A stretch of DNA of 16,480 nucleotides from an uncultured Clostridia bacterium. GTDB taxonomy: Bacteria > Bacillota > Clostridia > Oscillospirales > Ruminococcaceae. This document shows, piece by piece, positions 2,044 through 16,480 of this stretch. The translations under genes and the position numbers were made by a program. The stretch is from positions 1 to 16,480 of the forward strand of contig CANQKG010000009.1 of NCBI GenBank assembly GCA_947624425.1, read 5' to 3'. The notes beneath the pieces were generated by a model, which made no database searches, was not told the DNA's origin, and was given only the letters and a program-made list of their open reading frames with translations. The number at the start of each line of letters is the position of its first letter. Position 1 is the stretch's first letter.

Positions 2044-2099
2044 GATAAACTCCGCCGCCGGTTTCCGGTGACAAAGCTTTCTGGCAAGGAAGGTAGAAT

Positions 2100-2759: not shown

Positions 2760-2784
2760 ATTTATCCTGCCGATGCGGTATAAT
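2756..2784 (+). promoter_or_regulatory. Sigma-A-type promoter upstream of the DUF362/Isf gene pair
   Basis: TTGAAT (2756-2761), a 17-nt spacer, then TATAAT (2779-2784). The RBS GGGTGG and ATG 2827 lie downstream. Confidence 0.5.
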
Positions 2785-2826
2785 AGCGGTATAATAATGG
2801 TAATAAAAATGAAAGGGTGGTTTGAG

Positions 2827-3659
2827 ATGAAATCAAAGGTCTATTTTTCAAAGACGATCACGCCCGAAAAGGTGACGGAGCTTTACCGTCTGCTGGGAAA
2901 AAGCTTGCCCGGCAAGGTTGCGGTGAAGGTGCATTCGGGCGAGGTGGGGAACCAGAACTTTATCACGCCCGATTTTTGGAAGCCGATGATCGATGCGGTG
3001 AACGGCACCTTTGTGGAGTGCAACACCGCCTATGACGGCGGACGGAATACCACCGAAAAGCATCTGAAAACGCTGTCGCTGCACGGCTGGGATCAGGGCT
3101 TTCCGGTCGACCTGCTTGACGCCGAGGGACCCGATCTGGAGCTTTCGATCCCGCAGGGGAAAATGATCCGGAAAAACTATGTCGGCAAAAATCTTGCAAA
3201 GTACGATTCCATGCTGGTGCTCTCCCACTTCAAGGGCTTTCGATCGGCGTAGCGTCCTCCTACGGCAAGTCCTATATCCACGGCGTGGGTAAGCCGGAGG
3301 ATTTCTGGACCTCGGATCATGATTCTTTCCTTGCCGCCATGGCGGAAGCCGCGTCCTCTGTCATCTCGTTTTTTGACGGCAACCTTGCCTATATCAATGT
3401 GATGAAGAATTTGTCGGTCGACTGCGATTGCTGCGAGGTGGCGGAGGACCCCTGCATGGCGGATATCGGGATCCTTGCCTCGACCGATCCGGTTGCGATC
3501 GATCAGGCGTGTCTCGATCTTGTCTATGCCGCCAAGGACGATCCCGGACAGAAGCATTTTCTGGAGCGGGTGGAAAGCCTCAACGGCGCGCATACCATTG
3601 AGGTCGCTGCCGAAATAGGGTACGGCTCCCGCGAGTATGAACTGATCACCGTAGAATAG
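2827..3659 (+). pseudogene. DUF362-family protein gene (Cys-rich, DCDC motif) interrupted by a short deletion plus frameshift at about 3238-3245
   Basis: Two adjacent ORFs, 2827-3252 in frame 1 and about 3240-3659 in frame 3, together make about 280 aa. That is the size of a single DUF362 protein. The first ORF ends ...LSHFKGFRSA-stop. The frame-3 read continues immediately with SIGVASSYGKSYIHGVGKPEDFW... and has no RBS or ATG of its own (the track start is a GTG at 3285). The likely true start is ATG 2827 (MKSKVYFSK) behind the RBS GGGTGG, not the upstream 2773. Confidence 0.6.
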
Positions 3660-4456: not shown

Positions 4457-5020
4457 ATGGAAGCGACATTCCCGGGTTCGGTTGTTGTCCGTCATGGGAA
4501 GACGGCAGGCGAATTTTTTGACGGAATGTTTTTTGCGACAAAAGGGTTGATGCTGTTGCAGGTGCGGGAAATTACCGGTTTGGATACGCCCGTTATCCAG
4601 AATTGGGTCAACAGGGGCTGGATCCCAAAGCCGGTGGAAAAGCGGTATTCTGCCAATCATTTGGCGCGGATCATGCTGATCAATATGCTGCGTCCCGTTG
4701 CCAAACTGGAGCACATCGCCCATATTCTTGCTTTTATCAACGGTGATACCGAGAACTTGGCGGACGATATCATTCCGGAAGCCAAACTGTATATTTATGT
4801 CTGTGATATTCTGGATCAGGTCGATTTTGAAACCGTGCTGACCGAGCCGAAGCTGGTCGGGATCATTGAGAAGAGGATCGGAGATTATCAGGAACCGTTT
4901 GACGGTGCAAGGGAAAAGCTGATTCACGGTATCAAGCTGATTTTGATTTATTATGCCGCCGCGGTGGTGAAGGTGCGTGCAGACCGTATGCTGAATTCAC
5001 TTGGACTGGCGGACGATTGA
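4457..5020 (+). CDS. DUF1836-like small HTH protein (MerR-like helix-turn-helix signature), putative regulator
   Basis: About 187 aa from ATG 4457, which sits 8 nt after GAGGGGG. The upstream ATGs at 4418, 4430 and 4439 lie inside or at the promoter. The motif ...REITGLDTPVIQNWVNRGWIPKPVEKRYSANHLARIMLINMLR resembles DUF1836/MerR-type HTH proteins. Confidence 0.55.
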   Translation: MEATFPGSVVVRHGKTAGEFFDGMFFATKGLMLLQVREITGLDTPVIQNWVNRGWIPKPVEKRYSANHLARIMLINMLRPVAKLEHIAHILAFINGDTENLADDIIPEAKLYIYVCDILDQVDFETVLTEPKLVGIIEKRIGDYQEPFDGAREKLIHGIKLILIYYAAAVVKVRADRMLNSLGLADD

Positions 5021-5036
5021 GAAAGGAGAGAAAATC

Positions 5037-5657
5037 ATGGCAAATTGGTGGAATGGTTTAACGCTTTCGGGACAGATTTTTGCTATGATCGCAATTCCGG
5101 CTACAGCGGTCATGCTGGTACAGGCGTTGCTGCTGCTGCTCGGAATCGGTCTGGATATTGACGTGGACGGGGACGGCGTGCCGGACGCCGATATCGACCA
5201 TGACGGACTGGGGCTTATTTCTGTCCGAGGAATCGTGGCGTTCTTTTCGGTCGGCGGCTGGGCAGGCTTTGTTGCCGACGCAGGTGGTCTGCCGATTGCG
5301 GTGTCGGTATTGATTGCGCTTACCGCCGGTGTTTTGGCGCTGATCGGTATTGCGGTGCTTTTCAAAAGCGTATACAAATTACAGGGTGAGGGAAATCTCA
5401 GCATTGAAAACGCAGTCGGTAAGACGGGGAAGGTTTATCTGCCTATTCCGCCGAAAGGGCAGGGACAAGGGAAGATCAATTTGTTGCTCCAGGATCGTCT
5501 GACCGAACTGGACGCCGTTCATGAGGGTGATACCACACTTGTCACGGGCGAAAGTGTCATAGTTCTTTCTGTTGCCGATGCACAGACAGTGGTTGTGCAG
5601 GGCGTCAATACGGAAGATAAAACCATTTATCAAGGAGGAATTTCAAAATGGAATTAG
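5037..5657 (+). CDS. NfeD-like membrane protein (short NfeD/YuaF type, C-terminal OB-fold), flotillin partner
   Basis: ATG 5037 follows the RBS aaaggagag. The track's 5001 start is a TTG overlapping the upstream gene. An N-terminal TM hairpin (IFAMIAIPATAVMLVQALLLLLGIGL; LPIAVSVLIALTAGVLALIGIAVLF) is followed by a beta-rich C-terminus GKVYLPIPPKGQGQGKINLLLQD...LVTGESVIVLSVAD. The stop overlaps the flotillin start. Confidence 0.75.
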   Translation: MANWWNGLTLSGQIFAMIAIPATAVMLVQALLLLLGIGLDIDVDGDGVPDADIDHDGLGLISVRGIVAFFSVGGWAGFVADAGGLPIAVSVLIALTAGVLALIGIAVLFKSVYKLQGEGNLSIENAVGKTGKVYLPIPPKGQGQGKINLLLQDRLTELDAVHEGDTTLVTGESVIVLSVADAQTVVVQGVNTEDKTIYQGGISKWN

Positions 5658-7000
5658 GGGTTATTATTTTAATCACGGTCATCGCACTGCTGCTGTTTAC
5701 CAGCCTGATCGTACTGTTGACGCGCTATCGGAAGTGTCCGTCGGATAAGATACTGGTCGTCTACGGCAAGATCGGACGGAATAAGGACGGCACGCCTCGG
5801 AGCGCCAAATGTATTCATGGCGGCGCCGCGTTTATCATGCCGGTACTGCAATCGTACGAATATTTGGATCTGACGCCGCTGTCCATCTCGGTTGACCTGA
5901 AAAACGCGCTGTCCAAGCAAAACATTCGTATTGATGTGCCGTCCCGGTTTACGGTCGGTATCTCGGTGGAAAACGGCGTCATGCAGAACGCCGCCGAGCG
6001 TCTGCTTGGACTGAAACTGCCTGAAATACAGGAACTTGCCAAGGATATCATTTTCGGTCAGCTGCGTCTTGTCATCGCAACAATGGACATTGAGGAAATC
6101 AATACGGACCGCGATAAGTTTTTGGCAGCTGTCTCCAATAATGTGGAGAGCGAACTGAAAAAGATCGGTTTGCGGCTCATCAATGTGAATGTGACCGATA
6201 TTACCGATGAGTCGGGGTATATTGCCGCACTCGGTAAGGAGGCTGCCGCAAAGGCGATCAACGACGCGAAGATTTCGGTTGCCGAGGCAGACCGTGCCGG
6301 TGATATCGGTGAGGCGAACGCGAAACGCGAACAGCGCATTCAGGTGTCTCTTGCCGATTCGGAGGCAATCAAGGGTGAAAATGAGGCAAGAGCGCAGATT
6401 GCAGAATCCAACGCGACCTTGAACGAGAAGCAGGCGGAGGCGCAGCGGCGTTCGACCGCAGCGGAAAAGATACAGGCGGCAAAGGCTCTGCAGGAATCCT
6501 ACCGCGCCGAGCAGGAAGCCGAGCTTGCCCGTTCGACCCGTGAAAAGGCGACACTGGAAGCGGATGTGATCGTCGAAGCGGAAGCGGAAGCCGAGCAGAT
6601 CCGTCGCCGCGCCAAGGGTGAAGCGGACGCGATCTACGCGAAAATGGAGGCAGAGGCTCGCGGTATGCAGGAGGTACTCACCAAGCAGGCAGAAGGCTTT
6701 GAGAAGATCGTTGCCGCCGCCGGCGGGAATGCCGCTGACGCAATGCGGCTGATGATCGCCGATAAGCTGGAAGAGCTTGTCAAGGTGCAGGTAGAGGCGG
6801 TCAAGAATCTGAAGATCGACAAGGTGACTGTTTGGGACGGTATGAACGGCAAGGACGGCACACCGGCAACCGCGAATTTCCTCGCCGGTATGTTAAAGTC
6901 CATTCCGCCCATGAACGAAATGTTTGAAATGGCAGGTATGGAACTGCCGGAAATGTTAGGGAAAAAGCAGGTAACGCCTGCGGTCGAGGTGACGGAATAG
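5648..7000 (+). CDS. Flotillin-family SPFH/band-7 protein (FloT/YuaG-like)
   Basis: 450 aa. An N-terminal membrane anchor is followed by an SPFH domain, then a long Ala/Glu-rich coiled-coil region with EA repeats (EAEAEAEQIRRRAKGEADAIYAKMEAEA). The ATG overlaps the NfeD stop (ATGGAATTAG), indicating translational coupling. Confidence 0.88.
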   Translation: MELGVIILITVIALLLFTSLIVLLTRYRKCPSDKILVVYGKIGRNKDGTPRSAKCIHGGAAFIMPVLQSYEYLDLTPLSISVDLKNALSKQNIRIDVPSRFTVGISVENGVMQNAAERLLGLKLPEIQELAKDIIFGQLRLVIATMDIEEINTDRDKFLAAVSNNVESELKKIGLRLINVNVTDITDESGYIAALGKEAAAKAINDAKISVAEADRAGDIGEANAKREQRIQVSLADSEAIKGENEARAQIAESNATLNEKQAEAQRRSTAAEKIQAAKALQESYRAEQEAELARSTREKATLEADVIVEAEAEAEQIRRRAKGEADAIYAKMEAEARGMQEVLTKQAEGFEKIVAAAGGNAADAMRLMIADKLEELVKVQVEAVKNLKIDKVTVWDGMNGKDGTPATANFLAGMLKSIPPMNEMFEMAGMELPEMLGKKQVTPAVEVTE

Positions 7001-7050
7001 AAAAAGATTTTTGACAACGGTTCGCTTCCGCCGTTTTAGGAGGAAACAAC

Positions 7051-7677
7051 ATGAAAAAGTATCTGAAATATATCATCATAATTGCTCTGTTGGTGCTGTT
7101 CGATCAGGGAGCAAAGCTGGCTGTTACTCATTTTTACACCTTTGAGGGCGATCCTATGCAGGTCGTCAATACGGTGCATATCCATCCTGAAATCAATCCG
7201 GAAACGTCTTTCGCCGATTTGACGGATATGGTGAGCATTCTTTGTATGGTTCTGTTTTCCTTGGCTCTGATCTACCTCATGTATGCCGCGATCGTGATTG
7301 CAAAAAGGCGCGCCTATCCCGGATTGGTAAGAACACTTTTTGTTCTTTTTCCTGCGCTCTTTATCAATCGGGTGCTCGATCTCTTGATTTGGCATGGTAC
7401 GCTTGATTACATCTGTGTCTCATGGCTGCAGCACATAGAAGAAAACGGTGTTGCCGATCATGCCGTCTGTCACCAGATATTCGATCTGACCGATTTGTAT
7501 TTGACTGTCGCCTTTTTGCTGTTTGTCGTATATCTTATCCTGTTTGTTGTGACCTGTATTCGTTTAGGGAGAAACAAGGAGCAGGAAAAGGAATTTATAC
7601 AGGAGTTCAAGCGCCGCGTCAAAGCGTTTTTCAAAAAACCGATCGGCTTAATGGGAGAAAAGACAGATGAATTTTGA
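7051..7677 (+). CDS. Divergent signal-peptidase-II (LspA)-like polytopic membrane protein
   Basis: 208 aa; RBS AGGAGG lies 7 nt upstream. Motif-by-motif it parallels LspA: FDQGAKLAV against ADQLTKWLV; INRVLDLLIWHGTLDYI against GN.IDR...VVDFI; FDLTDLYLTVAFLLFV against FNIADSSLCVGVMLLF. Both presumed catalytic Asp positions are retained, while the NTGAAW block and the Arg of GNxxDR are lost. It carries an extra periplasmic loop and a basic cytoplasmic tail. Confidence 0.45.
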   Translation: MKKYLKYIIIIALLVLFDQGAKLAVTHFYTFEGDPMQVVNTVHIHPEINPETSFADLTDMVSILCMVLFSLALIYLMYAAIVIAKRRAYPGLVRTLFVLFPALFINRVLDLLIWHGTLDYICVSWLQHIEENGVADHAVCHQIFDLTDLYLTVAFLLFVVYLILFVVTCIRLGRNKEQEKEFIQEFKRRVKAFFKKPIGLMGEKTDEF

Positions 7678-8869
7678 CAGTCTGAAACGAATTTGGAACT
7701 CATGCGATCGGTTCTTAGACGTCTTTCTGCTGCACCTTATTGTGGTGCAGGGGGTTTACTTTTCCGTTTCGTTTTTCAACACCCGTTTCGATCTCGTCAC
7801 GACGGAATTGGGTTTTAACGGAAAACTTCTGTCGGTCACCTGTCTTATTCTTATGCCGCTGGTGTTTTACTCGCTGGTGCGAATGTCGGTGATCTACAGC
7901 GAACCGCTGATGGCACGGTTTTTTAAAGTGCCGGAGGAGGAGTGGGGCTTCCGAAAAAAGCTCGGTTTTTTGTTCCGGCAAAAAGCTTTCTGGTTCGCAA
8001 CTGCCGTCTGGGTCGCTTTGTATCTTCTTCTGCCGCTCAAATGGACTTATGCCGTACTGCTGGACACCTTCCTCAACGGGCAGGACAGCATGGCAGGAAA
8101 GCTGCATCTTCTGACAGTGCTGTTTCCGCTGTTCTTCCTGCTTGCAATCGCCGCGTATTTTGCCGCATTTCGCTATTGGACTACCTATAAAACGGGAAAA
8201 TCATCCCTGCGTTATGTGGGCGAAACGATGCAAAAGGCTTATAGAAGAATGATAGTATCGGTGGTTGTCGTTTATGCGGTGGTCGCAATGTTCGTATGTA
8301 TGCTGTTACCGGTTTTTTTGTCTATGCTGCTGCCGATCGTCTGGACGCTGATCTGGCCCGACGGGATTATTGCACTTGCGATAGGTATTGCGGTGGCGGC
8401 ACTGCTCTTTCGGCTGCAGGGACTTATAAAGCGCCGGAAGTTCTTAAAGCGGTTGAAGCGAATGGAGCGGGATCATCTCTGCGAGGTGACCGAGATCAAC
8501 CGCCCTTACCGTTCTGTTTTTGCACTTTATGACGGAGAGAGCTTTCGTGTAAAGCGAAACGGGAAAGAATACGCCTGTAAGCTGGTGAGCGCCCTTAGAA
8601 AAAGTCGACCGATGGTGATCCATGAAAACGGGGTCTACGAATTGATTCGCAGTAAATTTGTCCCACCCGGACAGCGTGGGTATGACTTTGGGTTTGATGC
8701 CGACTGCCAAAAGGTTTTGATTTTAAACCCGACCCCAAAGCTCATTTTTGACAGCAGAATGCGCCAGCTTGATAATGGGGACACCGTTGGCGGATATAAG
8801 ATCTACACCGGCACGGCGTTTCTAAACGCCCTTGAGCGCGACTGCATCGACCGCAGCTTAAACCGATAA
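7667..8869 (+). CDS. Uncharacterized 7-TM membrane protein with a roughly 140-aa cytoplasmic C-terminal domain
   Basis: 400 aa. The ATG overlaps the previous stop by 11 nt (translational coupling). There are about seven hydrophobic segments. A basic juxtamembrane stretch KRRKFLKRLKRMERD is followed by a soluble C-terminal domain with no recognizable family. Confidence 0.6.
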   Translation: MNFDSLKRIWNSCDRFLDVFLLHLIVVQGVYFSVSFFNTRFDLVTTELGFNGKLLSVTCLILMPLVFYSLVRMSVIYSEPLMARFFKVPEEEWGFRKKLGFLFRQKAFWFATAVWVALYLLLPLKWTYAVLLDTFLNGQDSMAGKLHLLTVLFPLFFLLAIAAYFAAFRYWTTYKTGKSSLRYVGETMQKAYRRMIVSVVVVYAVVAMFVCMLLPVFLSMLLPIVWTLIWPDGIIALAIGIAVAALLFRLQGLIKRRKFLKRLKRMERDHLCEVTEINRPYRSVFALYDGESFRVKRNGKEYACKLVSALRKSRPMVIHENGVYELIRSKFVPPGQRGYDFGFDADCQKVLILNPTPKLIFDSRMRQLDNGDTVGGYKIYTGTAFLNALERDCIDRSLNR

Positions 8870-8875
8870 ACGCGA

Positions 8876-8906
8876 ACGCCGCAGATCACTCTGCGGCGTC
8901 ATTTTT
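8876..8906. terminator. Bidirectional rho-independent terminator between the convergent membrane-protein and MscS genes
   Basis: acgccgcag (8876-8884) pairs with ctgcggcgt (8891-8899) around a 6-nt loop, followed by catttttcat on the + strand. The MscS stop codon sits in the loop on the other strand. Confidence 0.6.
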
Positions 8907-9704
8907 CATATGTACGTCAATTTGCGGGAACGGGATCTCGATCCCGGCGGCGGTCACGGCGGCCAAAGCGTCCTCGTACAATCGGGTGCGCGCGTCAAAA
9001 AAGCACTCGCTTGCCGCAAAGGCGCGGAACATCAGCAGAATGCCGGAGCTTTCATATGCCTTAATAAATACCATCGGCGCCGGTTCGGAGAGGATCAGCG
9101 GATTTTCCTCGGCACAGGCAAGAAGCGTTTTTCTGGTAAGCGCAATGTCGGTGCCGTATGCCACCGAGATCGGAATGTCAATTCCTCGGTAGGTCTGGGC
9201 GGAGAGGTTGATTACCGTGGTGGAGGACAGCACGGAATTGGGTATGTTGATGCTCCGGTTGTCGGGGGTGATCAGCTTGGTGTAGAAGACGCCGATCTCG
9301 TCCACCGTGCCCTCATGCTCTGCCGTTGCGACATAATCTCCGGCGTGGAAGGGTTTGAAGATCATCAGCATCACGCCGCCCGCCAGATTGGAAAGCCCGC
9401 CTTGAAGCGCCAGCCCGAACGCCAGCCCGCAGGAGCTGATCACGGCGATGATGGTGGCGGACGGCACACCGAGTATCTGTATGGCAATGATAATCAGCAG
9501 CGCATTGAGCAGCACACGAACCACCTGTAAAATCAAGGCGGCGATGTTGCTGTCAAGCTTTGCAAAGGATTTTTGCTTTTGCAGCTTCCGGATCAGAGCC
9601 TTGACCAGTTTGAACCCGATCAGCAGCACAAGCGCTGCGATAACAAGATCAACGACAAACGGCGCCAGGTAGGAATTGATGAAATTGCCGAACCATTCCA
9701 GCAT
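8886..9704 (-). CDS. Mechanosensitive ion channel, MscS family
   Basis: 272 aa from ATG 9704-9702, which lies 8 nt after the RBS AAGGGAG. The track's 9722 start is a TTG. Three N-terminal TM helices, the pore-lining helix GLAFGLALQGGLSNLAGGVMLMIFKPF and a typical MscS beta-domain are present. Confidence 0.85.
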   Translation of the reverse strand: MLEWFGNFINSYLAPFVVDLVIAALVLLIGFKLVKALIRKLQKQKSFAKLDSNIAALILQVVRVLLNALLIIIAIQILGVPSATIIAVISSCGLAFGLALQGGLSNLAGGVMLMIFKPFHAGDYVATAEHEGTVDEIGVFYTKLITPDNRSINIPNSVLSSTTVINLSAQTYRGIDIPISVAYGTDIALTRKTLLACAEENPLILSEPAPMVFIKAYESSGILLMFRAFAASECFFDARTRLYEDALAAVTAAGIEIPFPQIDVHMKNDAAE

Positions 9705-9756
9705 GATCGACACTCCCTTCAAAAGCGTTTTGCGGATCGAGAATCATATCCATGTA

Positions 9757-9796
9757 GGATATATTATAGCATAAGATGTTTTACAACGCAATAAAA
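9757..9796 (-). promoter_or_regulatory. Putative extended -10 promoter for the MscS gene
   Basis: The minus strand reads TTGCGT, 17 nt, then TGcTATAAT (rc of 9763-9771). This places the TSS about 40 nt upstream of the RBS. Confidence 0.4.
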
Positions 9797-9798
9797 AC

Positions 9799-9829
9799 GC
9801 AGGGCAAAGGCTTTTGGCCTTTGCCCTGC
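9799..9829. terminator. Strong hairpin terminator for the giant minus-strand gene
   Basis: gcagggcaaaggc (9799-9811) pairs with ggcctttgccctgc (9816-9829), a 13-14-bp GC-rich stem around a tttt loop. On the minus strand it is followed by TTTTTATTG. Confidence 0.7.
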
Positions 9830-9841
9830 CGCTTTTTGATT

Positions 9842-12800
9842 TTACGCAAGGCCGACTGCTTTGCGCAGGATCAGCAAAGCGTCGCTTACGGTTATGGTAT
9901 CTTCTTCCGGTTTATCCGGATTGGCAGCCCAGAAATCGCCGTCTTTCAGTACATCCAGACCAACCGCAGCCCGCAGTGCAAGCAGCGCATCCACAACGGT
10001 GATCTCGTCATCGTAATTGACGTCGCAGAGATAACGGGTCGCCAAACCGGCAATCGCTTCTTCAAGCGCCTTGGCCATCGCGTCAACCTCGGCCTGACGG
10101 TCGGGCGTCAGATTGTAATCGATCTGATCGAGCAGCTCTTTCACAGCCTGAGCAGACGCCTTGGTGTAGCGTGTCAGATCCTGCGGAACTTTTTCGACGG
10201 CCTCATTCAACTTGGTGTAATCGGCTTTCGGCTGAATGGCGCCGCATACGGTGCAGCTGCCGTTTTCATAGGTGTGCGCGCCGTATTCTTCCTTTTCTCC
10301 GCAAGTGCATTCACGGTAGTGATGCGTTCCGTCGTTCTGCCAGCTGCCGTACAGATGCTCATGAGGAGCGGGGAGACGGTCGATCACCTGTCCGTCTGTG
10401 ATCTTCTGATCGCAGCCGAGGCAGTAAACATCGCCGGTATAACCCTCTGTTTCGGTCGTAGCCGGTTTTTCTCCCACCAGTCTTGTGCCGCCGGTGTGAT
10501 ACTCCGGATCCCGTTCGGTGTATTCAAATCCGCACACTTCGCAATGCTTGCCTCCGACACAGGATGCAGTCCCTCCGGTATGCCCGGCAAGGTCGCTTTG
10601 CTGCGTACAATCGGGATTCACACAGGCAGTCCGATGGCCGTTTGCGTCGCCGGTGACATTCCCGCTAAACTGATGCGTCATTGCCGCTTTGGTTACGGCG
10701 CCGCAATCCGGACATTTGACCTCGGTTTCACAGTTCCCGTCGTCCGCCGCATTGAGATGGCTGCATACCTGACGGTATCCGCATACGGTACAAGCACGGT
10801 AATGGGAATCGCCGTCCGTCTGATAATCGCCGAAGTTGTGTTCCTCCATGTCTTCCACGGTATTGCAGCTGCACTCATGATAGTGGTGGGTCGCGGTTTG
10901 GATCCAGTCGCCGAAGTCGTGCTGATGCGAGGGCGGCAGACATTCGATATCCGCGCCTTCCGAGATCTTTTGCTCACAGCTGAGACAGTAGACGTCGCCG
11001 GTATAACCCTTTTCGGTTTCGGTCGGCGCCTTGTAGCCGTCGGTTCTGGTCTCGCCGATATGGGTGTTCGGATCCCGTTCGGTGTATTCAAAGTCGCAGA
11101 CCTCACAATGCTTACCGCTGACGCAGGAAGCGCTGCCGCCGCTGTGTGCGACCGTTTCGCTCAACTGCCGACAGTTGAGATTGGTGCAGGCAGTGCGGTG
11201 ACCGGTTTGATCGCACTCCACGCGTCCCGAGAAATTATGCTGCTGCGCCGGTTCGATGATCGCACTGCAGTAGATGCAGGTGATAGCGGTCGCACAGTTG
11301 TAATCTTCGGGCGAATGTTCGTGGACGCCGTCCTGACGGTAATGGCAGAGCATACATTCCCGATAATGGGCGTCGCCCGCATTATGGTAGGAATCGAACT
11401 CATGCGCGACGGTTGATTCTTCCTTGATCGCGCCGCATTCGGAGCAAACGGTCCAGTGGCGCTGATCGTCATGGGCGTATTGCGTGAAGGAATGCTGATG
11501 TTCCGCTTCCAGCGGCGGAATTGTCGAGCCCTTTACCTTGACCTGCTGACAGCCGAGGCAGTACAGGTCGCCGGTATAGCCCTCCTCTTCATAAGTGGCC
11601 GGTTTCTGGAACCGAAGCTCATCGCCGCCCACATGATTGTCGGGATTGGTGGGGCCGTAGCGGGTGTGGCAAAGTCGGCATTCTGCCGCTTCGTGACAGG
11701 TCGCCGGCGTACCCTCGACATGGGCTTCCCGGCTTTCGGCGTCGCAGTCCGGATTGGTACATTCGAGTAGGTGGGTGGTCTCATCGCTGTTTCCGGGTTT
11801 CACTGCCCAGGAATGACTTTCACCGGCCGCCACCATCTCATAGTTGCAATCGAGGCAGAGGGTGGGCGTGATGCAGTTGTGGTCGCTGAGACCCACATGG
11901 TCAAACTTCTGCTGCACGTTGCAGCCCGGCTCGGTACAGTTGTGATAATGGCACTCGCTGTCGGCATGCCAATCGCTGCACCAGGTATGCTCCGGACGAG
12001 AGGGCAGCACCACATAGCCGCACACCGAGCAGGTGACTGCGTCATGGCAATTCCCCTCATATCCGTTTTCGGCGGATTTGTCGTGCGGCTGAGTGTCCGA
12101 GGGAATGCCGCATATCGTACACAGCTGGAAATGCCCTGTCTCATTGGATTGATAGCTGCCCCATTGATGATCGTGGGGGATACGGGTGTAGCCGCACACC
12201 GTGCAGGTGTCGCCTTGAAATTCATGCGGCTTTACATAAGACCCTTCCGTGTACTGGTAAGTGCAGCCCGACACATTGCAGACCGCCGCGTGGTACTGCG
12301 CTTCTTTTCCGGCAAGCGGCCGGTAGTGGAAGGGGAATGGAGAGTGGTAGGCCTGCGCCGGCTTTAACAAGGCATTACAGGACTGGCAATACAGGGCTGT
12401 TTTGCAGTCGCCGTCGTCAACGCCGAGATGCGCTTCAGTCTCCACAAAATGACAGACGCTGCATTCACGGTAGTGGTTTTGCGTATCCCACGATCTTGTC
12501 TGATAATCGCCGAATGTGTGGGGAACGGCCGGATTCATCACCTTCCGGCAGACACGGCAGATATCTTCGGTCGTACAGTCGTTGTCATCCGTCCATTTGT
12601 GATCCCCGGTTGCGGGGGTGTTCTCGTCATAGCTGTGGCCGCAGCGGGTGCATTGATAGGTGGTCACGCCGTCGGTCGCGCAGGTGGCAGATACCGTCTT
12701 CACCACCTCGTATTGGTGATCTCCGCCCAGTGCAGGTTTTTCGGTCGTGTAGGAATTGTCACAGTAGCGGCAGGTGTGGGTGATAACGCCTGCCTCGGTG

Positions 12801-15800
12801 CAGGTCGCAGGCTTTGTCACCTGAGAGGTGTAGGAATGCAGATCCTCGGATGACGGGATCTCCTGTTCCTGACGGTATTCACAGTAGCTGCAGACCCATT
12901 CCTGCAATCCGTTGTCTTTGCAGGTGGCGGGGCGAACCGTTCTCCAACCGCCCGAGTGAGCCGTGTTCGGAGTGATGGTCTGAGAAAATTCCTGCCAGCA
13001 GTCGGAGCATACCGATTTTTTCACCAGATCTACGGTGCAGTCCCCGCTGGGGGAGGTTTTATAGGACGATCCGACAAAGTGCGCGTGTGCATAAGAGGGA
13101 AGAACGCTCCGGACGGCTTCACAGTCGGCGCAGATCTCGTAGGAGATACCGTCGGCGTCGCAGGTCGACTCTTTAACAAACGGCATCCAATGGTGAGCGC
13201 CTTCGGTCGGCGTCTCGTCGCCTACCTTGACTTCCAGATAGGTGCAGTCGCTGCATTGCGAAATGGTGTAGGAGCGCCCATCACAGGATTGCTCAGCCGT
13301 AACGGTGCGAAGCGGAGTAAGATGATGCTCCGGCTGATCTTTTGCAACCGATCTTTGAAGCGGATTATAGAATCTGCTGCAGTCACGGCACCGATACATG
13401 GTGATTTCGTTTTGCTGCAGTGTGCAGGAAGATTCGATGACATAGGTGGATCTCCCGGCCAGCATACCGTGTTCACGGCGGACTTGTACCGTTCGGGAAA
13501 CGGTCGAATCGCCCTTCATCGCAGTCACCGTGTAGGTATAATAGGTACCGTATGCGGTCGATTTGTCGGGCGCGGCCAATTCAAACGGCTCGCCCGGCTG
13601 ATAGGAGACGTCTTCCGGGAGAGTGTCGCCGGACACGGTGATGGAATCCGCACCCAGTACATTCACGGACGGTGCGCCGCAGAATATGTCGGTATCTGCG
13701 CCTCTTGTCACGGTATATCTCTCCTGATTCGGAGTGATGACGATGACCGGGTCTTCGGTCACGATCTTCGGCACGACCGAGACAATACCGCTTTCGGCTT
13801 CCGCCTGTTTGACCGTCTCGGGTACAAAGGAGACATTCAGCATATCGTTGGCGCCCACGATCTCGTAATAGCTCAGAGAGAAGGTGCCGTTGTCTCCGAC
13901 CGGAATGGAACGCCCGCCGAAGGATACGACGTCGGTGGCAAATCCGGCTTTCGGCTTTACCTTGAAGGTGTGGGACTGACCCTCTTCAAAGGAGATAAAG
14001 CCTTTTTCGCCGGCGGTCGATTCACCGTCGCAGGTGACGGCGCCGTTCCCATCGGTCTTCACGATAATGTTGTGGTTCTTTTCCTTTTCGTCGGCGCTCA
14101 CCTTGGAAGCGTCGAGCGCCACCAGCTCGAAGGGGGAGAAGGAATCACAGAGGATGACCAGCCCGTACTGGGTGACGGCGAGCGGGATCTCCTCAACCGA
14201 AATGATGTCGTCGCCGTACTTGTGATCCGGATCGTTGACATGGTCGCACTGTTTGGTCGGGGAGCAGCGGGTAAAGTGATATGCTTTGAAAACAACCTCT
14301 TTGTTTGCCACGCTGGAAGCGTCATATCCGGCGGGGAAGCCAAGCTGCATTCTAAGGCTTTCGCCCTCCAGTACGACCGTCATTTTGCACAGGCGGGTGA
14401 AGTTGATTTCGTACATCGAGCTGCTCTTGATGGCGGAGCCGGAAATATTGGTGTGCTGATCGAAGGCTTCGGTGACCTCCTCGTATTTTTCACGGCTCAT
14501 GCCGTCTTCTTTGCCGATCTCCTCCACGGTCAGCATCAGACGGCCGTTCATATCGTCGATCTTCATCTGCTTCTGAAGATCGTTAAGCGTTTCTCTGGAG
14601 CCGTCCACGCCTTCAACGGCAAGCCTGGAAAGATCCAGATCGTTCGGATTATCAAGGAGAGAGGGGCGACCCCACAAAGCCCAGTCGATCCCCTGGCTGC
14701 GATAAGCCATCGGGCAAACCGAGGTGGACATCACATAGCTCCAAGAATTGGGAGCTTTATTGGAGCGGCTCCCGACCAGACCGGTGATACTGAAATCATA
14801 GAGGGTCAGATCGTCGGACCAGTTTGTACTTGCCTGGAACTGATACTCCACACCGGTCACAAAGCAGTCTTCGGGATTGTGCTGATGGCTGTCCTCACAG
14901 TCGTAGATCCATGTGACAACGCCTTCGTCCAGGACATAATCGCGGTTGCTGTCCGCCGAGATTTTTCCGACCAGATCATAGGGAACAATTTCGCCGTCCC
15001 GATCCAGCTGATAGCAGTCAAACCGAACGGTAACCGGCTCGGTCGCCGCTTTGCGGGAATCGGGCGTTTCGGGCGCTCCGGGATTCGTGATCGAAGCCGG
15101 GCTGATTTCGGACAGGGCGGGATGATACATCGAATCGTCAAATTCAATGTGGATCGTGAAGGTTTGCCTTGTATCAAGCTGTCCGGTCGGCGCCGGCGAC
15201 TGCCGATAGACGCAGGGAGCCGCTTCAAATTCCGATGCGGAATTATAAAGCATTTCGGTTTTGGAGATGATGTCCGAACCGTCGCCGTGATAGAAACCGG
15301 TCTCCGGATTTTTAGACAGGCCGTTGTTTTCCGGCGGGTTTTTCCAAGTGTCATACCCTTCCGGACGGGTGGTAGTCAGGGCAAATTCCACATACTCACA
15401 GGTTGCGGTGCAGAATTTCAGACAGGTATCGGTATCATAGAAATATTCGTTTTTGCCCAGCAGCGCCAAAGCGGCGGCGGCATAATACCAGTCTTCCATT
15501 TTGTGGGAGGTGCCGTCCGGATGCTCGTCGTACATCTTGACCAGCAGGTAGACGCCCTGCTCGGCGGCTTTTTCCATTCCCATACCGTTGTAATCGACGG
15601 TGAACTGCCCGGCGACCTCATCTTCCATCTCACCGTTGGCGGTGTATTGTACATGCAGGCCGCTCAGGCCGTCTTCAAATACTTCCTCGCCGGCATAGCT
15701 GCGCGGTTCAATGGTCGGGTAGGTAAAGCTCATATTGCCGCTGGAAACGGCGCCGGAAGGCAGCCAGTTCTGGCCGATTACCTCGGTGCCGACCAAGAGA

Positions 15801-16480
15801 TAGCTTTCGATCTCGCCGCCGTCGTTCCCGAGGCCTTCCCCTTCGATCCGCTGTCCGTCTTTGTCAAGCCGGATCGGATCGTCCCAAGTCGCGTCCACGG
15901 CATACCACTTGTCGCCGAGCTCAACGGCATTCCACATATGCATCTCGGGCGTGTTGCCGGAATTCTGGACGCCGTGAACCAGTACGCAGGGAATGCCCAG
16001 CCGGTTCAGGATCACCTGCATCGAACGGGCATAGCCCTCGCAGACGCCCTCATGTGTTGCAAGGGCATAGAGGGTGCGGATATAAGGGATGTGATCGGGC
16101 TGGCATTCGGTCTCAAAACGGTAGGAAATACCCTTTGTCACCTGCTCATGCACGAACCTCACCTTTCGGGCAGCCGCGTCCGCATCGCTCAGTCCGTCCG
16201 TTTTGATGCGGCCGGCCTCGGTTACGATCTTATCCACGGCTTTTTTCAGGCTTTGATCCATCTCACTTACCTGAGAGGGATCCAATCCCGGCAGGAGATA
16301 GGTGGAATCCCTGCCGACGCCGAGGTAGGCGGCATATTCGCCGTCTGCCTTTTGGGCGACGCGGAGGCTTAGGTAGGAGCTGTCCACATACCACGCCTCG
16401 GAACATTCGAGATCAAACGCGTCTTTTGCCGCAGAGAAGTCGTCTGCCAGGGTGCGGTCGCCGCCGATATAGGCGTCAAG
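9842..16480 (-). CDS. Giant secreted multidomain protein (5'-partial, more than 2,212 aa in the window): transglutaminase-like Cys-protease core, Cys/His-rich tandem modules and a C-terminal dockerin
   Basis: The minus-strand ORF has its stop at 9842-9844. The frame stays open with no stop through nt 16480 (...LDAYIGGDRTLADDFSAAKDAFDLECSEAWYVDSSYLS...). The track's Met at 16387 is therefore an internal GTG and the N-terminus lies outside the window. Domains are described under separate features. Confidence 0.85.
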   Translation of the reverse strand, partial: LDAYIGGDRTLADDFSAAKDAFDLECSEAWYVDSSYLSLRVAQKADGEYAAYLGVGRDSTYLLPGLDPSQVSEMDQSLKKAVDKIVTEAGRIKTDGLSDADAAARKVRFVHEQVTKGISYRFETECQPDHIPYIRTLYALATHEGVCEGYARSMQVILNRLGIPCVLVHGVQNSGNTPEMHMWNAVELGDKWYAVDATWDDPIRLDKDGQRIEGEGLGNDGGEIESYLLVGTEVIGQNWLPSGAVSSGNMSFTYPTIEPRSYAGEEVFEDGLSGLHVQYTANGEMEDEVAGQFTVDYNGMGMEKAAEQGVYLLVKMYDEHPDGTSHKMEDWYYAAAALALLGKNEYFYDTDTCLKFCTATCEYVEFALTTTRPEGYDTWKNPPENNGLSKNPETGFYHGDGSDIISKTEMLYNSASEFEAAPCVYRQSPAPTGQLDTRQTFTIHIEFDDSMYHPALSEISPASITNPGAPETPDSRKAATEPVTVRFDCYQLDRDGEIVPYDLVGKISADSNRDYVLDEGVVTWIYDCEDSHQHNPEDCFVTGVEYQFQASTNWSDDLTLYDFSITGLVGSRSNKAPNSWSYVMSTSVCPMAYRSQGIDWALWGRPSLLDNPNDLDLSRLAVEGVDGSRETLNDLQKQMKIDDMNGRLMLTVEEIGKEDGMSREKYEEVTEAFDQHTNISGSAIKSSSMYEINFTRLCKMTVVLEGESLRMQLGFPAGYDASSVANKEVVFKAYHFTRCSPTKQCDHVNDPDHKYGDDIISVEEIPLAVTQYGLVILCDSFSPFELVALDASKVSADEKEKNHNIIVKTDGNGAVTCDGESTAGEKGFISFEEGQSHTFKVKPKAGFATDVVSFGGRSIPVGDNGTFSLSYYEIVGANDMLNVSFVPETVKQAEAESGIVSVVPKIVTEDPVIVITPNQERYTVTRGADTDIFCGAPSVNVLGADSITVSGDTLPEDVSYQPGEPFELAAPDKSTAYGTYYTYTVTAMKGDSTVSRTVQVRREHGMLAGRSTYVIESSCTLQQNEITMYRCRDCSRFYNPLQRSVAKDQPEHHLTPLRTVTAEQSCDGRSYTISQCSDCTYLEVKVGDETPTEGAHHWMPFVKESTCDADGISYEICADCEAVRSVLPSYAHAHFVGSSYKTSPSGDCTVDLVKKSVCSDCWQEFSQTITPNTAHSGGWRTVRPATCKDNGLQEWVCSYCEYRQEQEIPSSEDLHSYTSQVTKPATCTEAGVITHTCRYCDNSYTTEKPALGGDHQYEVVKTVSATCATDGVTTYQCTRCGHSYDENTPATGDHKWTDDNDCTTEDICRVCRKVMNPAVPHTFGDYQTRSWDTQNHYRECSVCHFVETEAHLGVDDGDCKTALYCQSCNALLKPAQAYHSPFPFHYRPLAGKEAQYHAAVCNVSGCTYQYTEGSYVKPHEFQGDTCTVCGYTRIPHDHQWGSYQSNETGHFQLCTICGIPSDTQPHDKSAENGYEGNCHDAVTCSVCGYVVLPSRPEHTWCSDWHADSECHYHNCTEPGCNVQQKFDHVGLSDHNCITPTLCLDCNYEMVAAGESHSWAVKPGNSDETTHLLECTNPDCDAESREAHVEGTPATCHEAAECRLCHTRYGPTNPDNHVGGDELRFQKPATYEEEGYTGDLYCLGCQQVKVKGSTIPPLEAEHQHSFTQYAHDDQRHWTVCSECGAIKEESTVAHEFDSYHNAGDAHYRECMLCHYRQDGVHEHSPEDYNCATAITCIYCSAIIEPAQQHNFSGRVECDQTGHRTACTNLNCRQLSETVAHSGGSASCVSGKHCEVCDFEYTERDPNTHIGETRTDGYKAPTETEKGYTGDVYCLSCEQKISEGADIECLPPSHQHDFGDWIQTATHHYHECSCNTVEDMEEHNFGDYQTDGDSHYRACTVCGYRQVCSHLNAADDGNCETEVKCPDCGAVTKAAMTHQFSGNVTGDANGHRTACVNPDCTQQSDLAGHTGGTASCVGGKHCEVCGFEYTERDPEYHTGGTRLVGEKPATTETEGYTGDVYCLGCDQKITDGQVIDRLPAPHEHLYGSWQNDGTHHYRECTCGEKEEYGAHTYENGSCTVCGAIQPKADYTKLNEAVEKVPQDLTRYTKASAQAVKELLDQIDYNLTPDRQAEVDAMAKALEEAIAGLATRYLCDVNYDDEITVVDALLALRAAVGLDVLKDGDFWAANPDKPEEDTITVSDALLILRKAVGLA
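9845..10030 (-). other. C-terminal dockerin-like module (two Ca-binding loop plus helix segments) of the giant protein
   Basis: CDVNYDDEITVVDALLALRAAVGL has D1-N3-D5-T9-D12 loop spacing followed by a helix. A second segment, NPDKPEEDTITVSDALLILRKAVGLA, lies at the extreme C-terminus. A helical linker precedes them (TKLNEAVEKVPQDLTRYTKASAQAVKELLDQIDYNLTPDRQAEVDAMAKALEEAIAGL). Confidence 0.55.
10000..11760 (-). repeat. Three tandem copies of a ~565-bp (~189-aa) Cys/His-rich repeat unit within the giant gene (the last is truncated, and a further degenerate copy extends to about 12,100)
   Basis: DNA-level near-repeats recur at 10506, 11070 and 11643 (ggatcccgttcggtgtattcaaa(t/g)c(c/g)ca(c/g)ac...caatgctt(g/a)cc). 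The block cagc(c/t)gag(g/a)cagta.ac.tcgccggtata(a/g)ccct recurs at 10411, 10971 and 11543. Period is 560-573 bp. Protein-unit motifs are HSGG-ASC-GKHCEVC-FEYTERDP, KPAT-E-EGYTGD(V/L)YCL(G/S)C-QK, HQH-F, THHY(R/H)EC-C, HYR-C-(V/L)C-YRQ, H-FSG and GHRTAC-N. Confidence 0.75.
12540..13320 (-). repeat. About seven tandem ~38-aa Cys3/His mini-modules (consensus p-A-T-C-x2-[DN]G-x5-C-x2-C-x8-10-P-A-x-G-H/D-H-x-[WY]) in the giant protein
   Basis: Successive segments are AEQSCDGRSYTISQCSDCTYL..HHW, KESTCDADGISYEICADCEAV..HAHF, SGDCTVDLVKKSVCSDCWQEF..HSGGW, RPATCKDNGLQEWVCSYCEYR, KPATCTEAGVITHTCRYCDNS..GGDHQY, VSATCATDGVTTYQCTRCGHS..GDHKW and NDCTTEDICRVCRK..HTF. Confidence 0.6.
15880..16120 (-). other. 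Transglutaminase-like cysteine protease core (Cys-His-Asp) within the giant protein
   Basis: VCEGYARSMQVILNRLGIPCVLVHG supplies the Cys, TPEMHMWNAVELGDKWY the His and AVDATWDDP the Asp. The order and spacing are typical of the transglutaminase-like superfamily. Confidence 0.65.

What the first reader, a model, noticed from the sequence alone, without database searches (positions are those of the whole stretch)
10000..12100. ~189-aa Cys/His-rich macro-repeat present in 3 to 4 tandem copies with a 560-575 bp DNA period
Nucleotide-level near-identical blocks recur at 10506, 11070 and 11643, and again at 10411, 10971 and 11543. They encode a unit with an invariant skeleton: GKHCEVC-FEYTERDP, KPAT-E-EGYTGD-YCL-C-QK, HQH-F, THHY-EC-C, HYR-C-C-YRQ and GHRTAC-N-C. 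The high DNA identity between copies implies recent duplication or concerted evolution. It makes the locus prone to copy-number variation and to assembly collapse. Paired Cys and His residues at fixed spacing suggest metal-binding (zinc-ribbon-like) or disulfide-stabilised extracellular modules of unknown function.
Basis: seen in the sequence. Interest (0 to 1): 0.65.

Follow-up and report, generated by a model that had tools for sequence, protein, structure and literature searches.

The report
Zinc-knuckle stalk repeats, surface enzyme
The repeat is real but old and diverged: it is the last part of a chain of about 33 small Cys/His (probably zinc-binding) beta-sheet modules that most likely forms a long stalk holding a transglutaminase-like enzyme away from the cell wall of a gut Clostridia bacterium, and the same module type was noticed in 2025 in the Thomasclavelia ramosa IgA protease.

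Summary
A 188-192-aa Cys/His-rich macro-repeat exists on the minus strand, inside one giant gene (9842-16480, at least 2212 aa, 5' end off the window). There are 2 full copies and one 62% copy, not 3-4. The copies are 39-56% identical in protein and 50-63% in DNA, so they are not near-identical. A 65%-identical ortholog from another assembly has the same 2.6 copies. Orthologous copies are more alike than paralogous ones, so the duplication is old and there is no sign of concerted evolution or assembly collapse. The macro-repeat is six mini-modules, each with a His/Cys tetrad (H-C-C-C or H-H-C-C). It ends an array of about 33 such modules (aa 1004-2079). A profile of the unit matches the ZBD1/ZBD2 (= CTD2/CTD4) regions of T. 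ramosa IgA protease (E 3.6e-10). Those regions were described in 2025 as predicted zinc-linked rods of three-stranded sheets. No Pfam family or solved fold matches. Ligand columns are the most conserved, and a Cys-to-HxH ligand swap covaries across the family, which favours metal sites over disulfides. Relatives show head, variable-length array, then wall anchor (sortase, SLH or dockerin). At least 10,116 protein clusters carry the module. Verdict: a zinc-stapled stalk, and a new member of a recently noticed, still unvalidated kind.

The parts
9842..16480 (-). Giant surface-protein gene, partial. It encodes at least 2212 aa; the stop codon is at 9842-9844 and the 5' end (about 85 codons including the signal peptide, judged from ortholog P0001) lies beyond the window.
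   Evidence: ORF list and translation. Homologs cover the whole minus-strand product. The P0001 N-terminus has a signal peptide.
13472..16480 (-). Head and middle region, aa 1-1003. It contains a transglutaminase-like core (aa 99-197, window 15890-16186) with an invariant Cys147-His181-Asp196, followed by mostly beta domains.
   Evidence: Pfam PF01841 scores 49 bits against a cutoff of 23. The triad is invariant in 36 homologs. The AF2 model has pLDDT 73.6. Best fold match is S. pyogenes TglA 9crn, E 5.6e-9, followed by other TGase and cysteine-protease folds.
10244..13471 (-). The whole Cys/His module array, aa 1004-2079. It holds about 33 knuckle modules, 87 Cys and 71 His.
   Evidence: CxxC-type knuckle census. 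Composition is 8.1% Cys and 6.6% His, against 1.7% and 1.7% in the rest of the protein.
12548..13471 (-). Array block 1, aa 1004-1311. Eight modules of about 40 aa of the type H...(A)TC...C-x2-C (His plus three Cys).
   Evidence: Segment list; module typing and counts are my manual curation of that list.
11723..12547 (-). Array block 2, aa 1312-1586. Nine modules alternating H-H-C-C and H-C-C-C, with a two-module period of about 58 aa.
   Evidence: Self-BLAST offsets of 57-59 aa. Segment list (typing is manual). Partial matches to the macro-unit HMM.
11147..11722 (-). Macro-repeat copy 1 (aa 1587-1778, 192 aa), made of six modules a-f.
   Evidence: Alignment of the copies.
10583..11146 (-). 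Macro-repeat copy 2 (aa 1779-1966, 188 aa), made of six modules a-f. This copy was modelled.
   Evidence: The AF2 model has mean pLDDT 76 and is all-beta, with runs of three short strands per module.
10232..10582 (-). Macro-repeat copy 3, partial (aa 1967-2083, modules a-d). The last module lacks its second ligand.
10037..10225 (-). Helical linker, aa 2086-2148, FIVAR-like but below threshold.
   Evidence: Pfam FIVAR E 0.094, 13.8 bits against a cutoff of 29.2. This is a resemblance only.
9845..10036 (-). C-terminal dockerin-like module, aa 2149-2212. It has two DxNxDxxIxxxDALxxLR-type segments, the second degenerate.
   Evidence: BLASTP to the Pfam-annotated dockerins of homologs P0059 (E 8e-7, 41% over 59 aa) and P0024 (E 3e-4). 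Pfam Dockerin_1 itself scores only 9.5 bits against a cutoff of 22.9.
9799..9829 (-). Terminator-like hairpin (13-14 bp stem, T-runs on both strands), 13 nt after the stop codon.

Best explanation
The macro-repeat is a six-module super-unit (a-f, about 188 aa) within a tandem array of about 33 small beta-sheet modules. Each module carries four conserved His/Cys ligands, either H-C-C-C or H-H-C-C.

By homology with the ZBD1/ZBD2 (= CTD2/CTD4) regions of T. ramosa IgA protease, each tetrad most likely binds one structural Zn2+. The metal would staple successive three-stranded sheets end to end, giving a core-less extended rod.

In this protein the rod sits between an N-terminal secreted transglutaminase-fold Cys-His-Asp enzyme head and a C-terminal dockerin-like anchor. 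It would therefore work as a stalk ('periscope') that projects the enzyme far from the cell wall. Extrapolating from 110 A per 129 aa in IgAse gives roughly 90-120 nm.

Shown here:
- the repeat anatomy;
- homology to the IgAse modules;
- conservation and covariation of the ligand positions;
- the head, array, anchor order with variable module number in relatives.

Inferred:
- zinc occupancy and which residues pair in each site;
- rod shape and length;
- the spacer role;
- cohesin-mediated anchoring.

The array grew by old duplications at one-module (about 40 aa), two-module (about 58 aa) and six-module (about 188 aa) scales.
For: Anatomy:
- Copies are defined and aligned.

Homology:
- A profile of 7 macro-units hits PDB sequence 9qa6_A 'IgA protease' at E 3.6e-10. 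The two matched stretches (chain 843-967 and 1068-1135) coincide with ZBD1 and ZBD2.
- PMC12415215 shows by SAXS that isolated CTD2 is a fully extended rod and calls the fold an uncharacterised metal-associated periscope domain.

Structure:
- The AF2 model of copy 2 is all-beta, with three short strands per module and pLDDT 75-88 across modules b-e.

Metal rather than disulfide:
- The proposed ligand columns are the most conserved of the 187 profile positions over 1271 instances: 0.83-1.00 for most, 0.60-0.72 for the His at positions 74, 76, 115 and 130.
- Many modules have three Cys, and the array has 87 Cys in total, an odd number.
- When Cys43 of module b is present, an HxH at positions 74/76 is found in 3 of 246 instances. 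When it is absent, as in all window copies, HxH is found in 102 of 177.
- After reduction to representatives below 50% identity the counts are 0 of 66 against 25 of 62 (p 6e-10). Within the 32 proteins that hold both kinds they are 0 of 58 against 33 of 63.
- The array is low in hydrophobic residues.

Stalk role:
- Ortholog P0001 has a signal peptide and a C-terminal PPTG motif, TM helix and basic tail. Other homologs end in SLH or dockerin.
- Module number ranges from 0 to 33 among 70 proteins sharing the head.
- Among the top 150 module proteins, 126 have a signal-peptide-like N-terminus and about 85 a sortase-like or TM tail.
- In those proteins the arrays sit a median of 134 aa from the C-terminus, with a median of 314 aa of non-module sequence at the N-terminal side.
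- The same modules occur with many different partner domains: GH20, CAP, LRR, NlpC/P60, GDSL, metallophosphatase, cohesin and M64.
Against: - Zinc binding by this module type has never been measured, even in IgAse. Both papers rely on predictions.
- I could not obtain model coordinates, so ligand geometry and site pairing are inferred from sequence only.
- My assignment for module b (H, C, C plus Cys43 or an extra His) does not obviously match the '2 His + 2 Cys' stated for all three ZBD1 sites in PMC12237041.
- The macro-unit model rests on a 7-sequence alignment. Its mean pLDDT is 76, and modules a and f score 46-74.
- The link to IgAse appears only at profile level. phmmer of the whole array against PDB finds nothing.
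- The dockerin fails Pfam's threshold, and no cohesin gene is in the window.
- In IgAse the ZBDs are joined to neighbouring domains by flexible linkers, so a 33-module chain need not be one rigid rod.
Confidence: 0.7

Rival explanations
1. The modules are disulfide-stabilised extracellular knots (EGF-like) with no metal.
For: - The region has a high Cys content in a secreted protein.
- No metal has been measured for any member of the family.
Against: - About half the modules have three Cys, and others have only two Cys plus two invariant His (manual typing).
- His ligand columns are as conserved as Cys columns.
- A lost Cys is compensated by a gained His at another position. That makes sense for a four-ligand metal site and not for a disulfide.
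- The hosts are strict gut anaerobes.
- In IgAse no disulfides were seen in experimental or predicted structures, and reducing agent improved its behaviour in solution (PMC12237041).
Confidence: 0.07
2. The modules are mainly ligand-binding or adhesive units (for host glycans, proteins, other cells or plant fibre) rather than a passive spacer. The array would then be a multivalent adhesin.
For: - Other stalk repeats such as the InlB B-repeat and SasG/Aap also bind partners (discussed in PMC12415215).
- The order of six module types a-f is conserved as a unit: 43 full units in 30 of the top 150 proteins. This hints at more than generic spacing.
Against: - Conservation is concentrated on ligand and turn residues (G, Y, T), and surface positions are variable.
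- Module number ranges from 0 to 33 among proteins with the same head.
- The modules accompany many unrelated heads.
- The IgAse ZBDs are dispensable for substrate binding and catalysis (PMC12237041).
Confidence: 0.15
3. The array serves metal handling. It would be a cell-surface zinc (or iron) reservoir, scavenger or sensor, with about 33 sites per molecule.
For: - There are about 33 putative tetrahedral sites per chain.
- PMC12415215 speculates that the function may be regulated by environmental zinc.
Against: - Fully coordinated Cys/His tetrads are typical structural sites with very slow exchange (established knowledge; also argued in PMC12415215).
- There are no metal-transport genes next to the gene in the window or next to ortholog P0001.
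Confidence: 0.05
4. The macro-repeat is a recent duplication or an assembly artefact (collapsed or expanded tandem repeat).
For: There is a tandem arrangement with a regular 564-576 bp period.
Against: - DNA identity between copies is only 50-63%, and the longest exact run is 24 nt.
- An independently assembled ortholog has the same 2.6 copies and 33 modules.
- Orthologous copies are closer than paralogous ones, with one tie at 56%.
- The reading frame is intact throughout.
Confidence: 0.02

Closest known systems
ZBD1/ZBD2 (Gomis-Ruth lab, PLoS Pathog 2025, PMC12237041), also called CTD2/CTD4 (Tran, Frenette and Holyoak, PNAS 2025, PMC12415215), of the Thomasclavelia ramosa M64 IgA protease (UniProt Q9AES2; PDB sequence 9qa6_A)
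   Same: - Sequence-homologous modules at profile E 3.6e-10. Macro-unit modules b-c-d align to ZBD1 and c-d to ZBD2.
- Both have small three-stranded sheets and His/Cys tetrads of the 2H2C or 3C1H type.
- Both lie between an N-terminal secreted enzyme and a C-terminal wall anchor.
- Neither has a Pfam family or a solved structural neighbour.
   Different: - IgAse has 3+2 modules split by an Ig-like domain. This protein has about 33 contiguous modules organised at three repeat scales, including a conserved six-module super-unit.
- The head is a transglutaminase-fold enzyme, not an M64 metzincin.
- The anchor is dockerin-like, not an SPQTG sortase signal.
- Module b in this protein has lost the 'ATC' cysteine and carries HxH instead.
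Periscope proteins / SasG and Aap G5-E repeat rods of staphylococci
   Same: - N-terminal functional head, long repeat stalk and C-terminal wall anchor.
- Single-layer beta sheets without a hydrophobic core, a comparison drawn in PMC12415215.
- Stalk length varies between relatives.
   Different: - Canonical periscope repeats are near-identical at DNA level and vary between strains. These copies are 50-63% identical and stable between two species.
- Zinc in Aap bridges protomers through His/Asp/Glu sites, not intramolecular Cys/His tetrads (PMC12415215).
Classical zinc ribbons and zinc knuckles (TFIIS C-terminal domain, RPC12/RpoP, XPA finger)
   Same: - CxxC knuckles on beta hairpins.
- A local 32-33-residue structural match to the XPA zinc finger (Foldseek prob 0.85-0.96, rmsd about 2 A).
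- JGI automatically names some family members 'RPC12/RpoP'.
- Subdomain I of ZBD1 is said to resemble the TFIIS zinc domain distantly (PMC12237041).
   Different: - All Pfam zinc-ribbon and C2H2 matches are far below threshold.
- The ligand order starts with His, and by homology the sites bridge consecutive modules.
- The proteins are extracellular with no nucleic-acid context, so the RPC12/RpoP label is a misnomer.
Signal peptide - transglutaminase-like - dockerin proteins of Ruminococcus flavefaciens FD-1 (Rincon et al. 2010, PMC2930009)
   Same: Secreted transglutaminase-like enzymes carrying C-terminal dockerins in a gut Clostridia fibre degrader.
   Different: That paper does not describe a Cys/His module array. 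I did not test homology of the heads to those ORFs.

Membership tests
IgAse ZBD / CTD2-CTD4-type zinc-associated rod module | Sequence homology to ZBD1/ZBD2 | tested here: met
   A profile of 7 macro-units against PDB sequences gives 9qa6_A at E 3.6e-10. Two stretches (i-E 4e-4 and 1.4e-5) fall on ZBD1 and ZBD2. A single-sequence search finds nothing.
IgAse ZBD / CTD2-CTD4-type zinc-associated rod module | Subdomains are three-stranded antiparallel beta sheets without a hydrophobic core | tested here: met
   The AF2 model of copy 2 is all-beta, with strand triplets 33-36/51-54/60-62, 78-83/87-92/97-102 and 105-111/114-119/125-128. Hydrophobic content is low. Model confidence is moderate (pLDDT 76).
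IgAse ZBD / CTD2-CTD4-type zinc-associated rod module | Tetrads of 2 His + 2 Cys or 3 Cys + 1 His per module | tested here: met
   The pattern is present in 31 of about 33 modules (manual typing). The columns are conserved and show a compensatory Cys/His swap.
IgAse ZBD / CTD2-CTD4-type zinc-associated rod module | Tetrahedral geometry and actual Zn occupancy | not testable with these tools
No metal data exist for any member of the family.
IgAse ZBD / CTD2-CTD4-type zinc-associated rod module | Extended rod in solution | not testable with these tools
   Known only from SAXS of IgAse CTD2 (PMC12415215). It is extrapolated to this protein.
Periscope proteins (canonical definition) | Tandem repeats nearly identical at DNA level, with copy number varying between strains | tested here: not met
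   DNA identity is 50-63%. The copy number is the same in a 65%-identical ortholog. Length does vary among more distant homologs, from 0 to 33 modules.
Periscope proteins (canonical definition) | Head, stalk and cell-wall anchor topology | tested here: met
Dockerin type I (Pfam PF00404) | Score above Pfam gathering threshold, with two Ca-binding F-hand segments | tested here: inconclusive
   Pfam gives 9.5 bits against a cutoff of 22.9, E 1.5. The module does align end to end with the PF00404-annotated dockerins of homologs P0059 (E 8e-7) and P0024 (E 3e-4). The second loop is degenerate.
Transglutaminase-like core (Pfam PF01841) | Score above threshold and a Cys-His-Asp triad | tested here: met
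   49 bits against a cutoff of 23. C147, H181 and D196 are invariant in 36 homologs. The fold matches TglA 9crn at E 5.6e-9.
Pfam zinc-ribbon / C2H2 families (Zn_ribbon_3, Zn_Ribbon_TF, zf-C2H2_4, Rubredoxin) | Score above gathering threshold | tested here: not met
   The best scores are 14-16 bits against cutoffs of 23-29.

The most novel reading that the evidence does not exclude
The modules define a very large, still unclassified family of extracellular zinc-dependent rod domains in gut Clostridia, with at least 10,116 clusters at 50% identity. The conserved six-module a-f super-unit would be a true structural super-period of that rod. Because the rod has no hydrophobic core, its stiffness and length would depend on zinc occupancy. 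Host zinc withholding (calprotectin) or zinc supply could then switch the display of surface enzymes on and off.
Probability: 0.15. Interest if true: 0.7.

Novelty: new member of a known kind. Interest (0 to 1): 0.4.

Why it matters
Cys/His 'finger' arrays are normally thought of as intracellular nucleic-acid binders. Here about 33 of them form what is probably a stalk of roughly 100 nm on the outside of a Gram-positive gut anaerobe.

- The family is huge: 10,116 representative clusters at E<=1e-3 and 620 at E<=1e-30, with arrays of up to 68 matched stretches in a 5219-aa protein.
- It accompanies many different surface enzymes.
- It has no Pfam or NCBIfam model and no solved structure.
- Some members are mis-named 'RNA polymerase subunit RPC12/RpoP' by automatic annotation.
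- The ligand-swap covariation found here is, as far as I could find, the first sequence-based evidence that the sites predicted in IgA protease are real metal sites.

A family model and one zinc-bound structure would annotate thousands of 'hypothetical' gut surface proteins.

Tried and rejected
- Tandem Repeats Finder found nothing because the copies are too diverged.
- The first homolog search with copy 2 alone returned nothing because of the word index. This was not evidence of absence: the exhaustive profile search found more than 10,000 proteins.
- Pfam and NCBIfam, run on the whole protein and on isolated pieces, gave no family for the modules.
- phmmer of the whole array against PDB found nothing.
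- Model coordinates were not exposed to scripts, so Zn-site geometry could not be measured.
- The top module proteins P0095-P0106 have no Pfam domains at all.
- The P0001 locus shows no synteny with the window, so there is no conserved partner gene.
- A literature search for TglA found nothing.
- Rejected: the long plus-strand ORFs (9776-11416 and 12956-16372) as real genes, because only the minus-strand product has homologs along its full length.
- Rejected: intracellular DNA-binding zinc fingers, because the relatives have signal peptides and wall anchors.
Full report
**The gene.** It stays open to the window edge at 16480. The product has at least 2212 aa. Compared with the closest relative P0001, about 85 N-terminal residues are missing, including the signal peptide. 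Residue i maps to window position 16480-3(i-1). A terminator-like hairpin (9799-9829) follows the stop codon. The long plus-strand ORFs opposite the gene have no support. Homologs cover the whole minus-strand product.

**Checking the observation.** A tandem macro-repeat is present.
- Shared 12-mers concentrate at offset 564.
- Segment-wise BLASTP gives offsets of 188 and 191 aa with E down to 4e-28.
- Copy 1 is aa 1587-1778 (192 aa; 11147-11722). Copy 2 is aa 1779-1966 (188 aa; 10583-11146). Copy 3 is partial, aa 1967-2083 (10232-10582).

So there are about 2.6 copies, not 3-4. The claim of near-identical DNA does not hold. The best 63-nt blocks are 67-76% identical. Whole copies are 50-63% identical at codon-aligned DNA level, with a longest exact run of 24 nt. 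Protein identity is 39-56%. Tandem Repeats Finder sees nothing.

**Age of the duplication.** P0001 is 2208 aa, 65% identical, and comes from an independent ENA assembly. It has the same 2 full copies plus 1 partial copy and the same count of 33 knuckles. Window copies 1, 2 and 3 are 62, 56 and 67% identical to their P0001 counterparts. They are only 39-56% identical to their own paralogs, with one tie (c2 is 56% identical to both P0001 c2 and window c3). The duplication therefore predates the split of the two organisms. There is no sign of concerted evolution, and collapse during assembly is implausible. P0002 (64% identical in the head) has only about 1.2 units, so array length does change over longer times.

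**Anatomy of the repeat.** The Cys/His-rich region is far larger than the box. It spans aa 1004-2079 (window 10244-13471) and holds 87 Cys and 71 His (8.1% and 6.6%, against 1.7% each elsewhere). It is poor in hydrophobic residues. It contains about 33 modules that each end in a C-x(1-5)-C knuckle.
- Block 1 has eight modules of about 40 aa of the H...ATC...CxxC type (aa 1004-1311).
- Block 2 has nine modules alternating H-H-C-C and H-C-C-C, with a two-module period of about 58 aa (aa 1312-1586; offsets).
- The 2.6 macro-units follow.

Each macro-unit is six modules a-f. The proposed ligand sets, in copy 2 numbering, are:
- a: H1, C8, C14, C17
- b: H29, C54, C57 plus H74 or H76
- c: H76 or H74, H88, C92, C94
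- d: H103, H115, C119, C122
- e: H130, C139, C145, C148
- f: H158, H171, C175, C180

The module typing and this pairing are inferred from sequence by hand. They were not measured.

**What is known that resembles it.** Pfam and NCBIfam have no model for these modules. Only sub-threshold zinc-ribbon noise appears. A profile of seven macro-units (A1) searched against all PDB sequences gives one significant hit: 9qa6_A, 'IgA protease', at E 3.6e-10. Two stretches match, at chain residues 843-967 and 1068-1135.

These stretches are the ZBD1 and ZBD2 regions of T. ramosa IgAse. PMC12237041 describes them from AI models as chains of three-stranded antiparallel sheet subdomains joined by putative structural zinc sites (2 His + 2 Cys, or 3 Cys + His). 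[quoted passage not shown] PMC12415215 calls the same regions CTD2 and CTD4. [quoted passage not shown] Macro-unit modules b-c-d correspond to ZBD1 and c-d to ZBD2.

**Metal site or disulfide.** I realigned 1271 domain instances from the 150 best family members.
- The proposed ligand columns are the most conserved positions: H1 1.00, C14 0.99, C54 0.99, C57 0.99, H103 0.98, C119 0.99, C175 0.98, C180 0.98, and so on.
- Column 43 is Cys in 69% of the family (the 'ATC' cysteine, present in IgAse). It is T, Y or E in all window and P0001 copies.
- That loss covaries with a second His in an HxH motif at columns 74/76. HxH occurs in 3 of 246 instances with Cys43 and in 102 of 177 without it.
- The association survives reduction to representatives below 50% identity: 0 of 66 against 25 of 62, p 6e-10.
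- It also holds inside the 32 proteins that contain both kinds of module: 0 of 58 against 33 of 63.

A Cys replaced by a His at a different position is what a four-ligand metal site would tolerate and a disulfide would not. Add the three-Cys modules and the invariant His residues, and the evidence favours metal binding. Zinc is the likeliest metal given the mixed Cys/His ligands. Occupancy itself is untested.

**Role in the protein.**
- The head (aa 1-1003) carries a Pfam transglutaminase core with invariant C147, H181 and D196.
- Its AF2 model (pLDDT 73.6) best matches S. pyogenes TglA (9crn, E 5.6e-9). It also matches other transglutaminase and cysteine-protease folds.
- After the array comes a helical, FIVAR-like linker, which is sub-threshold.
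- The protein ends in a 64-aa dockerin-like tail. The tail aligns with the Pfam-annotated dockerins of homologs P0059 and P0024 but fails Pfam's own cutoff.
- Seventy proteins share the head. Their Cys/His arrays range from 0 to 33 knuckles. Their C-termini are sortase-type (P0001, P0002), SLH or dockerin.

Across the wider family, 126 of the top 150 proteins have a signal-peptide-like start and about 85 have a sortase-like or TM tail. The arrays sit near the C-terminus, a median of 134 aa from the end. Partner domains are diverse: GH20 with F5/8C, CAP, LRR, NlpC/P60, GDSL, metallophosphatase, cohesin, fn3 and M64. A generic, length-variable element between varied heads and wall anchors is the signature of a stalk. 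Extrapolating 0.85 A per residue from IgAse ZBD1 gives roughly 90-120 nm for 1076 aa. That figure is an inference.

**Distribution.** The exhaustive profile search finds 10,116 representative proteins at E<=1e-3, 3,773 at E<=1e-10 and 620 at E<=1e-30. One protein of 5219 aa has 68 matched stretches. Full six-module units occur 43 times in 30 of the top 150 proteins, so the a-f super-unit is a recurrent building block. In species-representative genomes, 341 loci were confirmed. Nearly all are in gut Clostridia (Oscillospiraceae, Lachnospiraceae, Ruminococcus, Acutalibacteraceae), with many in rabbit-gut 'Lapin' MAGs. The best match is 58% identical, so the window's own genome is not in that collection. 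No conserved neighbour genes were seen.

**Verdict.** The feature is a new, unusually large member of a module type first noticed in 2025. That type remains experimentally unvalidated and unclassified. Confidence by claim:
- diverged tandem macro-repeat: about 0.97
- homology to the IgAse ZBDs: about 0.9
- metal binding: about 0.8
- stalk role: about 0.6

Noticed in passing
window 2773-3659 (+): A DUF362 gene is split into two ORFs in different frames (2773-3252 matches profile positions 1-110; 3285-3659 matches 141-200). The sequence around 3236-3285 looks like a short out-of-frame deletion after 'SHFKG'. It may be a pseudogene or an assembly error.
   Followed up: partly
window 9776-11416 (+) and 12956-16372 (+): Very long stop-free antisense ORFs (546 and 1138 aa) lie opposite the giant minus-strand gene. 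They are most likely shadow ORFs caused by codon usage, and a gene caller could mis-annotate them.
   Followed up: no
window 9799-9829: A perfect 13-14 bp GC-rich hairpin with T-runs on both sides lies between the giant gene and the downstream MscS-like gene (8886-9722, minus strand). It looks like a bidirectional intrinsic terminator.
   Followed up: partly
window 1102-2759 (+): A PLP-dependent (cysteine-synthase-like, PALP) gene sits directly next to a ThiF-family E1-like gene, followed by DUF362 and an FMN reductase. This may be a sulfur-carrier-type thiol biosynthesis cluster.
   Followed up: no
window 5001-5657 (+), 7667-8869 (+): Two ORFs (218 and 400 aa) have no Pfam match. GC content dips to 0.45 around 7000-8000, near a weak signal-peptidase-II-like ORF (7051-7677).
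   Followed up: no
P0272, P0313: JGI automatic annotation names module-bearing surface proteins 'DNA-directed RNA polymerase subunit RPC12/RpoP'. This is a misnomer caused by the zinc-knuckle motifs.
   Followed up: partly
P0140 (5219 aa, 68 matched stretches), P0195 (6446 aa), P0164 (5246 aa): Giant proteins elsewhere carry far longer arrays of the same modules. Their heads and anchors were not examined.
   Followed up: no
L001-L031: The closest full six-module units come overwhelmingly from rabbit-gut ('Lapin') Clostridia MAGs. The window probably derives from a related herbivore-gut organism that is absent from the species-representative genome set.
   Followed up: partly
P0072, P0249, P0305: The same Cys/His modules occur in cohesin-containing (scaffoldin-like) proteins. 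The stalk may therefore be used on both sides of cohesin-dockerin assemblies.
   Followed up: no
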